Shown piece after piece: positions 13,762 to 13,884 of a DNA stretch of 64,000 nt. Source of the stretch: Escherichia coli (GTDB taxonomy: Bacteria; Pseudomonadota; Gammaproteobacteria; Enterobacterales; Enterobacteriaceae); NCBI RefSeq assembly GCF_013122565.1, contig NZ_CP053258.1, one strand, 5' to 3'. Every line of letters begins with the position of its first letter. Within the stretch, counting starts at the first letter, position 1. The translations under genes and the position numbers were made by a program. Under the pieces are notes generated by a model. It was not told the origin of the DNA. It saw only the letters and a program-made list of their open reading frames with translations, and did no database searches.

Positions 13762-13884
13762 GCCGGATGCGGCGTGAACGCCTTGTCCGGCCTACAAAAC
13801 TGAAACGCATGTAGGCCTGATAAGACGCATCAGTGTCGCATCAGGCAGTTGTTGTCGGATAAGGCGTGAAAGCCTTATCCGTCC
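13762..13884. repeat. REP elements in the malE-malF intergenic region
   Basis: gccggatgcggcgtgaacgccttgtccggcctaca ... taggcctgataagacgc ... units; this is the classic location of malE-malF REPs. Confidence 0.75.

What the first reader, a model, noticed from the sequence alone, without database searches (positions are those of the whole stretch)
13762..13884. REP/BIME palindromic elements at eight intergenic sites
REP-type palindromes (gccggatgcggcg... / ...cgccttatccggcctaca) occur at 4950-5048, 9533-9665, 13762-13884, 21629-21712, 32866-32975, 33785-33857, 42194-42238 and near 47010-47052, always between convergent or co-directional gene ends. They account for most of the otherwise unexplained intergenic sequence and for several spurious small ORFs.
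Basis: partly seen in the sequence, partly recalled or inferred. Interest (0 to 1): 0.2.

Follow-up and report, generated by a model that had tools for sequence, protein, structure and literature searches.

The report
Ordinary E. coli REP/BIME repeats

Summary
The window is E. coli chromosome, collinear with K-12 MG1655 4,258,979-4,196,388. The flagged 13762-13884 is the malE-malF spacer.

A scan with the three E. coli REP consensus types (y, z1, z2) finds 15 REP units within 20% edit distance. Twenty random controls gave none.
- Sites 1 and 5 are BIME-1 (y, a 35-36 nt linker with an IHF-like site, z1).
- Sites 2, 3 and 4 are BIME-2-like (alternating y and z2).
- Sites 6, 7 and 8 each hold a single full REP unit.

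Rfam's REP-derived model naRNA4 passes its curated cut-off at three sites. Stem pairs covary between the y and z types.

All eight sites lie after gene 3' ends: 5 tandem spacers, 3 convergent, 0 of 10 divergent. Mechanical ORFs do overlap them. One claim is overstated: REPs cover only 9% of all intergenic sequence.

Copy number equals K-12 at five sites. It differs at aceA-aceK (1 unit against 3), at the sor-operon edge (absent in K-12) and at yjaB-rrfE (K-12 has yjaA instead).

The most likely role at malE-malF is a hairpin barrier to 3'->5' mRNA decay, possibly with partial termination. This is inferred from the literature, not tested here.

Verdict: confirmed, already known, low interest.

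The parts
13761..13795 (-). malE-malF REP unit 1, type y. GTAG head on the minus strand. Starts 10 nt after the malE stop codon.
   Evidence: 1 edit from the y consensus. Folds as a bulged hairpin, -10.7 kcal/mol as DNA, z = -3.6. Same call in K-12 (4245184-4245218, 1 edit).
13796..13810 (.). 15-nt head-to-head linker between the y and z2 units (AAAACTGAAACGCAT).
   Evidence: The equivalent linker at site 2 is 14 nt.
13811..13847 (+). malE-malF REP unit 2, type z2. GTAG head on the plus strand.
   Evidence: 3 edits from the z2 consensus. Hairpin -9.6 kcal/mol, z = -4.7. Part of the naRNA4 hit 13814-13884, 59.7 bits against a gathering score of 59.5.
13853..13887 (-). malE-malF REP unit 3, a degenerate y. 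The head is CCAG instead of GTAG. The AA/GC bulge is closed by GC->TT, giving a perfect 10-bp stem. It ends 16 nt before the malF ATG at 13904.
   Evidence: 7 edits from y. Alignment column check. Hairpin -10.5 kcal/mol, z = -6.9. Identical sequence in K-12 and in EcPF16.
4949..5048 (.). Site 1, plsB/ubiA convergent spacer: BIME-1. Composed of y (4949-4983, -), a 36-nt linker with the IHF-like site ATTCAATAAATTG, and z1 (5020-5048, +).
   Evidence: The linker weakly hits Rfam ES036/CssrF (27.2 bits). K-12 also has 2 units.
9533..9658 (.). Site 2, lamB-malM spacer: BIME-2-like. Composed of y (9533-9567, -), a 14-nt linker, z2 (9582-9618, +), a 5-nt linker, and y (9624-9658, -, head CTGG).
   Evidence: naRNA4 78 bits at 9585-9655. 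K-12 also has 3 units.
21630..21707 (.). Site 4, downstream of pgi: z2 (21630-21667, +), a 5-nt linker, y (21673-21707, -).
   Evidence: naRNA4 81.3 bits. K-12 also has 2 units.
32867..32964 (.). Site 5, between sorE and pepE at the right edge of the 6.3-kb sor operon insertion: BIME-1. Composed of y (32867-32900, -), a 35-nt linker with ATTCAATATATTG, and z1 (32936-32964, +).
   Evidence: Aligns along its whole length with site 1. The locus is absent from K-12, which lacks the sor operon.
33785..33855 (.). Site 6, pepE/yjbB convergent spacer: a truncated y-like hairpin (33785-33805) plus z2 (33818-33855, -).
   Evidence: naRNA4 46.4 bits, below the gathering score. K-12 has 1 z2 unit.
42195..42229 (-). 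Site 7, aceA-aceK spacer: a single y unit that matches the consensus perfectly.
   Evidence: 0 edits. K-12 has y-z2-y here. The spacer is length-polymorphic among E. coli genomes.
47015..47051 (+). Site 8, yjaB/rrfE convergent spacer: one z2/y hybrid unit with head GTAA. It is followed on the plus strand by a run of 7 T, so it looks like an intrinsic terminator for yjaB.
   Evidence: 4 edits from z2. Sequence read. Hairpin -11.0 kcal/mol. K-12 carries yjaA here and no REP.

Best explanation
These are REP (repetitive extragenic palindromic) units of the E. coli y, z1 and z2 types, arranged as BIME mosaics.

The flagged element is the classic three-unit BIME in the malE-malF intercistronic spacer of the malEFG operon.

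Origin (from the literature): REPs are short non-autonomous palindromes. Their GTAG head and bulged stem are the recognition determinants of the REP-associated tyrosine transposase TnpA_REP (RAYT). They settle where they are tolerated, after gene 3' ends.

Action at malE-malF (inferred, not shown here): the units are transcribed inside the malEFG mRNA and fold into very stable hairpins. These block 3'->5' exonucleases, so the upstream malE segment outlives malF-malG. They may also cause partial, partly Rho-dependent attenuation. Either effect would give high MalE relative to MalF and MalG.

The other tandem sites (lamB-malM, aceA-aceK, pgi-yjbE, sorE-pepE) would work the same way. The convergent sites would insulate or stabilise both transcripts. 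The two BIME-1 linkers carry an IHF-like site.
For: Identity (shown here):
- 15 units within 20% edit distance of the consensus, against 0 in 20 controls.
- The seed sequence is enriched 7-fold over shuffles.
- Rfam naRNA4 is at or above its gathering score at three sites.
- The y consensus I used agrees with the REP crystallised with TnpA_REP, GTAGGACGGATAAGGCGTTTACGCCGCATCCG (PMC3479197). It also agrees with the description of y (35 nt), z1 (29 nt) and z2 (37 nt) as bulged palindromes preceded by GTAG (PMC8266576).

Structure (shown here):
- 93% of stem cells pair, against 25-37% when partners are slid.
- Two stem pairs switch G-C to U-A between the y and z types.
- Single units fold at -8 to -12 kcal/mol, z = -3.2 to -7.5.
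- The whole malE-malF spacer RNA folds at -69.3 kcal/mol, z = -5.9.

Context (shown here):
- The window is collinear with K-12, and the site lies between malE and malF.
- Five sites are tandem, three convergent, and 0 of 10 divergent spacers carry a REP. Genome-wide figures are about 40%, 60% and 1% (bioRxiv 10.64898/2026.03.23.713779).
- No U-tract terminator was called at any REP unit of sites 1-5 and 7. The operon's own terminator is at 16424-16441.
- The 153-bp malE-malF spacer is covered at least 80% in 5416 of 5426 genomes, and it is 153 bp long in 28 of the 30 sampled rows.

Function (literature):
- REPs protect upstream mRNA by blocking 3'->5' exonucleases.
- Newbury et al. 1987, Cell 48:297, is listed in PMC7509114.
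- malE-malF RNA is a standard structured exonuclease substrate.
Against: No expression or decay data exist for this strain. The mechanism is carried over from K-12 experiments.

The same preprint reports three cautions: REP effects depend on context; REPs inserted after a reporter did not stabilise it; and REP-associated genes do not have uniformly longer half-lives.

The minimum-energy RNA fold pairs units 1 and 2 with each other in one long duplex rather than as separate hairpins. The exact barrier structure is therefore not settled.

Copy number varies freely at aceA-aceK and lamB-malM. This argues that the exact dosage is not strongly selected at every site.
Confidence: 0.88

Rival explanations
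1. The elements are selfish or fossil DNA with no host function. On this reading they are REPIN-like remnants spread by TnpA_REP and merely tolerated downstream of genes, where insertions do least harm.
For: Presence, absence and copy number differ between strains. aceA-aceK has 1 unit here and 3 in K-12, and spans of 232-427 bp across genomes. lamB-malM spans run from 298 to 480 bp. A full REP at psiE-yjbT in K-12 is reduced to a half arm here.

Three of 15 units have lost the GTAG head, which is essential for TnpA_REP binding and cleavage.
Against: The malE-malF spacer is covered at least 80% in 5416 of 5426 genomes and is 153 bp long in 28 of 30 sampled rows, at 94-100% identity.

Its third unit has lost both transposase determinants yet keeps, and even improves, its hairpin. 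That fits retention for the hairpin itself.

Published deletions of REPs change the expression of neighbouring genes.

This reading is not exclusive of the main explanation: it concerns origin rather than present effect.
Confidence: 0.3
2. The elements act mainly at the DNA level, as binding or cleavage sites for DNA gyrase (BIME-2), IHF (BIME-1 linker) and DNA polymerase I. Alternatively they act as sources of nucleoid-associated RNAs (naRNA4) that organise the chromosome together with HU.
For: Three sites pass the naRNA4 gathering score.

The BIME-1 linkers carry ATTCAATAWATTG, one mismatch from the IHF consensus WATCAANNNNTTR.

The literature lists IHF, gyrase and Pol I as REP/BIME partners.
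Against: Deleting or over-expressing REP325/naRNA4 did not measurably compact the nucleoid (bioRxiv 2026).

A purely DNA-level role does not explain the strict avoidance of divergent (promoter) spacers, nor the placement inside operons.

Protein binding cannot be tested with these tools.
Confidence: 0.2
3. The palindromes are ordinary Rho-independent terminators.
For: Site 8 (47015-47051) is followed directly by seven T on the yjaB strand.

The truncated hairpin at 33785-33805 is flagged as terminator-like after pepE.
Against: No canonical REP unit at sites 1-5 or 7 was called terminator-like, and none is followed by a T-run.

malF and malG lie downstream in the same operon, and its real terminator is at 16424-16441.

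The literature says most REPs lack a poly-U tract.
Confidence: 0.05
4. The elements are chance GC-rich palindromes, or parts of small protein-coding genes.
For: Mechanical ORFs of 30-278 aa overlap every site. RefSeq annotates a 47-aa 'hypothetical protein' (L003 26158-26301) over the orthologous psiE-yjbT REP (L003 26164-26201) in EcPF16.
Against: No consensus-level match was found in 20 controls. The same 35-nt unit occurs at a median of 39 places per genome, the count being capped. The overlapping ORFs lie in different frames and on both strands, and they run antisense into real genes. K-12 annotates no CDS in these spacers.
Confidence: 0.01

Closest known systems
E. coli REP / palindromic units (types y, z1, z2), organised as BIME-1 and BIME-2
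   Same: Consensus sequence, lengths (35, 29 and 37 nt), the GTAG head, the AA/GC bulge, alternating orientation, linker classes (35-36 nt with an IHF-like site; 14-15 nt; 5 nt), position after gene 3' ends, and high copy number.
   Different: Nothing of substance. Three units are degenerate at the GTAG head and one has a closed bulge. Such decayed copies are a known feature of the family.
The malE-malF intercistronic REP of E. coli K-12 (the mRNA-stabiliser model: Higgins et al. 1982 Nature 298:760; Newbury et al. 1987 Cell 48:297; both cited from reference lists, details from my own knowledge)
   Same: Same locus and same three units in the same order (K-12 4245092-4245218). Units 1 and 3 get the same calls, and unit 3 is the identical sequence.
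   Different: Unit 2 (z2) has 3 edits from the consensus here against 1 in K-12, with changes in and next to the loop.
REP325 / naRNA4 (Rfam RF02564) in the yjdM-yjdN operon
   Same: The z2 + y tail-to-tail pair with a 5-nt linker matches the model at or above its gathering score at three sites. The tandem-gene context matches the operon where the dual stabiliser and partial-terminator role was shown.
   Different: REP325 has 12 units; the arrays here have 1-3. Partial Rho dependence was seen only with the full 12-unit array, not with 2-4 hairpins.
REPINs and RAYT-mobilised repeats of Pseudomonas and other bacteria
   Same: Inverted REP doublets with a spacer, analogous to BIME-1.
   Different: Different consensus. 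No RAYT gene lies in this window, so linkage cannot be assessed here.

Membership tests
E. coli REP (y/z1/z2) | Sequence matches one of the three consensus types | tested here: met
   15 units with 0-7 edits of 29-37 nt. None in 20 controls at the same threshold.
E. coli REP (y/z1/z2) | Conserved 5' GTAG tetranucleotide at the foot of the hairpin | tested here: met
   12 of 15 units have it. The exceptions are 9624-9658 (CTGG), 13853-13887 (CCAG) and 47015-47051 (GTAA).
E. coli REP (y/z1/z2) | Imperfect palindrome with the AA/GC internal mismatch | tested here: met
   AA is invariant in 15 of 15 units. The opposing GC is present in 14 of 15, and is TT in 13853-13887. 93% of stem cells pair.
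E. coli REP (y/z1/z2) | Extragenic, at the 3' ends of transcription units | tested here: met
   8 of 8 sites lie in tandem or convergent spacers; 0 of 10 divergent spacers carry one.
E. coli REP (y/z1/z2) | Dispersed, high copy number in the genome | tested here: met
The source genome itself is not available.
BIME-1 | y and z1 head-to-head, separated by the long linker that carries an IHF site | tested here: met
   Sites 1 and 5 have linkers of 36 and 35 nt that align with each other. Both contain ATTCAATAWATTG, 1 mismatch from WATCAANNNNTTR.
BIME-1 | IHF actually binds the linker | not testable with these tools
   Needs a gel shift or ChIP.
BIME-2 | Alternating y and z2 units with short linkers | tested here: met
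   Sites 2, 3 and 4 have head-to-head linkers of 14-15 nt and tail-to-tail linkers of 5 nt.
BIME-2 | DNA gyrase binding and cleavage | not testable with these tools
   Needs in vivo or in vitro cleavage mapping.
naRNA4 (Rfam RF02564) | Score at or above the curated gathering score (59.5 bits) | tested here: met
   81.3, 78.0 and 59.7 bits at 21633-21704, 9585-9655 and 13814-13884. The match shows REP-pair sequence and structure; it does not show that a discrete sRNA is made.
RAYT/TnpA_REP-mobilisable element (REPtron) | A cognate tnpA_REP gene in the genome, and units that keep both GTAG and the bulge | not testable with these tools
   Every gene-sized stretch of the window is accounted for by K-12 orthologues or the sor operon, so no RAYT gene lies here. 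The rest of the genome is not given. 12 of 15 units keep both determinants.
Rho-independent terminator | GC-rich hairpin followed immediately by a U-tract | tested here: not met
   No site was called at 13761-13887 or at the other canonical units. Site 8 does have a T7 run after the hairpin.

The most novel reading that the evidence does not exclude
REP sites in this window coincide with strain-to-strain structural differences more often than expected:
- a BIME-1 at the edge of the 6.3-kb sor island;
- a REP where yjaA is absent;
- a half-REP at psiE-yjbT;
- 1 unit against 3 at aceA-aceK.

By contrast, the malE-malF array has the same length in almost every E. coli genome, and its third unit has lost both transposase determinants while gaining a perfect stem.

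The most novel reading is that REPs split into two classes: 'domesticated' hairpins fixed by selection for RNA function, and 'live' sites that drive indels in the accessory genome. These could be told apart from sequence alone. The general ideas (REPs as variable sites and as 3'UTR regulators) are already in the literature, so this would be a refinement, not a new kind of system.
Probability: 0.25. Interest if true: 0.3.

Novelty: already known. Interest (0 to 1): 0.07.

Why it matters
The practical value is for annotation. Recognising these 672 bases as REP/BIME explains several 3' spacers. It also removes about two dozen mechanical ORFs from consideration and warns against calling naRNA4-type sRNA genes from an Rfam hit alone. 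RefSeq annotates a 47-aa 'hypothetical protein' over the equivalent psiE-yjbT REP in strain EcPF16.

Biologically, the sites are candidate 3'UTR regulators of malE/malF, lamB/malM and aceA/aceK expression ratios. The copy-number differences from K-12 (aceA-aceK especially) are natural variants that could be used to test how REP dosage tunes operon polarity. None of this is new in kind.

Tried and rejected
- A fuzzy-regex scan with BESTMATCH missed units because the search resumes after the globally best hit. I replaced it with a Sellers edit-distance scan.
- Seed matches with 2 mismatches outside the eight sites (25167, 28067, 36676, 40413, 53668, 62457, 63002, 63230) lie inside coding sequence and do not extend to a REP. 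I rejected them as chance or codon-composition matches.
- The match at 16971-16983 is a genuine half-REP remnant, not a full unit.
- The K-12 RefSeq feature table as served lists no REP repeat_region features, so I made REP calls for K-12 with the same scan instead.
- I tested whether the 156-bp nfi-hemE spacer and the K-12-only 122-bp rluF-yjbD segment are REP or ERIC. Neither matches the REP consensus or the ERIC primer core.
- Several literature searches for an open-access paper describing the malE-malF REP experiments returned only indirect citations. The Gilson 1991 BIME paper is not held. A search for the report that REPs close to stop codons stall ribosomes did not retrieve that paper. 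I therefore make no claim from it, although the REP starts 6-12 nt after the stop codon of plsB, lamB, malE, pepE and yjbB.
- I did not run protein-database, structure or metagenome searches. The element is non-coding and its identity was already settled.

Full report
**What the window is.**
The flagged stretch lies between the end of malE (stop at 13748-13750) and the start of malF (ATG at 13904). A 901-bp query around it matches malE/malF in 5412 of 5426 complete E. coli genomes at 95-99.7% identity. The whole window is collinear, in reverse orientation, with K-12 MG1655 4,258,979-4,196,388 (dinF to rsd), apart from a few insertions and deletions. This is ordinary E. coli chromosome.

**Checking the observation.**
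- I wrote the three E. coli REP consensus types in GTAG-first orientation:
  - y, 35 nt: GTAGGCCGGATAAGGCGTTCACGCCGCATCCGGCA
  - z1, 29 nt: GTAGGCCTGATAAGCGTAGCGCATCAGGC
  - z2, 37 nt: GTAGGCCTGATAAGACGCGCCAGCGTCGCATCAGGCA
- The sequences are from my own knowledge. They are consistent with the lengths and features given in PMC8266576 and with the y REP crystallised with TnpA_REP in PMC3479197.
- I scanned both strands by edit distance. Twenty first-order Markov controls gave none at that threshold and 3.55 on average at 30%.
- Rfam's naRNA4 model was built from an unrelated K-12 locus (REP325). It passes its gathering score at 9585-9655, 13814-13884 and 21633-21704, and gives weaker hits at sites 1, 6, 7 and 8. 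The long linkers of sites 1 and 5 weakly hit ES036/CssrF.

**Anatomy.**
- When the 15 units are aligned, the AA of the 5' arm is invariant and the opposing GC is present in 14 of 15. GTAG is present in 12 of 15.
- On the expected stem, 93% of cells form standard pairs, against 25-37% when partners are slid by 1-3 columns. Two pairs switch G-C to U-A between the y and z types (9 compensatory cells; 0 of 500 shuffles reach this).
- Single units fold as bulged hairpins of -8 to -12 kcal/mol on either strand.
- Units alternate in orientation. Head-to-head linkers are 35-36 nt at sites 1 and 5 (y-z1, BIME-1) and 14-15 nt at sites 2 and 3. Tail-to-tail linkers are 5 nt at sites 2, 3 and 4 (y-z2, BIME-2-like).
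- The two BIME-1 elements align along their whole length. Both carry ATTCAATAWATTG, one mismatch from the IHF consensus.
- Site 6 has a z2 unit preceded by a short hairpin (33785-33805) that looks like an internally deleted y.
- Site 7 is a single, perfect y.
- Site 8 is a z2/y hybrid with head GTAA, followed by seven T.

**The flagged site in detail.**
- The spacer is 153 bp (13751-13903), and REP sequence covers 127 bp of it.
- Its order is y (13761-13795, -), a 15-nt linker, z2 (13811-13847, +), a 5-nt linker, then a degenerate y (13853-13887, -).
- The third unit is unusual in two ways. Its head is CCAG, not GTAG. Its 3' arm reads CGCCTTATCC instead of CGCCGCATCC, which closes the AA/GC bulge and gives an uninterrupted 10-bp stem.
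- According to PMC3479197, both the GTAG head and the bulge are required for TnpA_REP binding. I infer that this unit is no longer a transposase substrate, although it is the most stable simple hairpin of the three relative to shuffles (z = -6.9).
- The same sequence is present in K-12 and in strain EcPF16.
- As RNA, the whole spacer folds at -69.3 kcal/mol (z = -5.9). In the minimum-energy fold, units 1 and 2 pair with each other in one long duplex and unit 3 forms its own hairpin.

- I built a gene table from the K-12 annotation and checked it for start and stop codons. It gives 7277 intergenic bases in 47 spacers.
- REP/BIME sequence totals 672 bases, or 9%. Within the eight spacers it covers 15-83%. 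The claim that REPs explain 'most' intergenic sequence is therefore overstated.
- All eight sites lie after gene 3' ends: five in tandem spacers (lamB-malM, malE-malF, pgi-yjbE, sorE-pepE, aceA-aceK) and three in convergent spacers (plsB/ubiA, pepE/yjbB, yjaB/rrfE).
- None of the ten divergent spacers has one, although these hold 39% of intergenic bases. This agrees with the genome-wide figures of about 40% tandem, 60% convergent and 1% divergent quoted in a 2026 preprint.
- Twenty-four mechanical ORFs of at least 30 aa overlap the elements, including 9539-9859 (106 aa) and 12974-13810 (278 aa, antisense to malE). None is an annotated gene in these spacers in K-12 or EcPF16.
- In EcPF16, RefSeq annotates a 47-aa hypothetical protein (L003 26158-26301) over the psiE-yjbT REP (L003 26164-26201).

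**Comparison with K-12 and other genomes.**
- The same scan on K-12 gives the same unit count at sites 1, 2, 3, 4 and 6. EcPF16 agrees with K-12 at those sites.
- Three sites differ:
  - aceA-aceK has one y here and y-z2-y in K-12.
  - Site 5 does not exist in K-12, which lacks the sor operon.
  - Site 8 is replaced in K-12 by the yjaA gene.
- K-12 has one REP that the window lacks, at psiE-yjbT. The window keeps only its 3' half-arm.
- Across 5426 genomes, from sampled rows:
  - The malE-malF spacer is covered at least 80% in 5416 genomes. It is 153 bp long in 28 of the 30 rows shown, at 94-100% identity; one row spans 172 bp in two pieces, and one is a short partial match.
  - The aceA-aceK query spans 232, 271, 329, 362, 375 or 427 bp.
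  - The lamB-malM query spans 298-480 bp.
  - The REP-bearing, yjaA-less form of site 8 is found in about half of the genomes (2812 with at least 80% coverage).
- Some BIME sites are therefore length-polymorphic, while the malE-malF array is essentially fixed.

**How it most likely works.**
- Shown here: sequence identity, hairpin potential, covariation, position inside the malEFG transcription unit, and the absence of a U-tract after the malE-malF units. The operon's own terminator-like site is at 16424-16441.
- From the literature:
  - REP hairpins protect upstream mRNA by blocking 3'->5' exonucleases.
  - Some REPs are partial Rho-dependent terminators.
  - REP325 does both within one operon.
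  - Tandem gene pairs with a REP between them show an upstream-biased expression ratio.
  - The malE-malF RNA is a standard structured substrate for exonuclease and degradosome work.
- From my own knowledge: the differential stability of malE relative to malF-malG mRNA was attributed to these very REPs by Newbury, Higgins and colleagues in 1987.
- I infer that in this strain the array stabilises the malE segment and reduces expression of malF and malG. I put about 0.7 on this mechanism and about 0.98 on the identity.
- DNA-level roles (IHF at the BIME-1 linkers, gyrase at BIME-2) are possible, but they cannot be tested here. The nucleoid-organising naRNA model has recently been contradicted for REP325.

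**Comparison with what is known, and novelty.**
Every defining feature of E. coli REP, BIME-1 and BIME-2 that can be tested from sequence was tested and met. Protein binding and the presence of the RAYT gene elsewhere in the genome could not be tested. The flagged site is the historical model REP. The finding is correct and already known.

**Verdict.**
Novelty: already known. Interest: 0.07. The only mildly interesting angle is the contrast between the fixed, transposase-blind malE-malF array and the polymorphic or indel-associated sites. That is a refinement of published ideas.

Noticed in passing
window 61452-61607 (nfi-hemE spacer): This spacer is 156 bp where K-12 has 9 bp. It contains an imperfect palindrome of about 120 bp (TTTGAGGCCGGACAG...CTGCCCGGCCTCAAA) that is neither REP nor an obvious ERIC. 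The full form is present in only 313 of 5426 E. coli genomes. An 87.5%-identical 120-bp copy occurs in roughly 980 further genomes; in the one genome checked (strain 2013C-3277) it lies between glnA and glnL. It looks like a low-copy MITE-like element and has no Rfam family.
   Followed up: partly
window 16444-16448: xylE is absent. The malG/malH 3' end is joined almost directly to the end of psiE, a loss of about 1.8 kb relative to K-12. In EcPF16 an IS1 sits between malG and xylE.
   Followed up: no
window 16942-17000 (psiE-yjbT spacer): K-12 and EcPF16 carry a full REP here (K-12 4240156-4240193). The window keeps only the 3' half-arm CGTCGCATCTGGCA, so the REP is either partly deleted here or pre-expansion.
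   Followed up: partly
window 26690-33008: A 6.3-kb L-sorbose (sor) PTS operon lies between rluF and pepE. It replaces 96 bp of K-12 sequence and is present at 80% coverage or more in 2865 of 5426 genomes. The best identity to any complete genome is only 98.5%. A BIME-1 sits at its pepE-side edge.
   Followed up: partly
window 40433-40451 and 46980-47103: arpA and yjaA, both Clermont phylotyping markers, are absent. This points to a non-A/B1 background; the phylogroup reading is from my own knowledge. Where yjaA is missing, the window has a REP next to an rrn-type terminator hairpin (47073-47098).
   Followed up: partly
window 25782/25783 (yjbD and rluF ends abut): K-12 has a 122-bp segment between rluF and yjbD containing CCCTCACCCTAACCC...GGGGCGAGGGG, which looks like a box-C-type repeat. 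That segment is missing from the window.
   Followed up: no
window 6697-8277: yjbI (SopA-family pentapeptide-repeat protein) is an intact 526-aa ORF here. It is a pseudogene in K-12 and frameshifted in EcPF16.
   Followed up: no
L003 26158-26301 (E. coli EcPF16): RefSeq annotates a 47-aa 'hypothetical protein' (WP_000487766.1) that overlaps the psiE-yjbT REP unit (L003 26164-26201). It is probably a spurious call caused by the repeat.
   Followed up: no
window 42168-42251 and 9427-9667: The aceA-aceK and lamB-malM spacers are length-polymorphic among E. coli genomes, in steps that fit gain or loss of REP units (spans of 232-427 bp and 298-480 bp for the queries used). The malE-malF spacer stays at 153 bp in nearly all sampled genomes.
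   Followed up: partly
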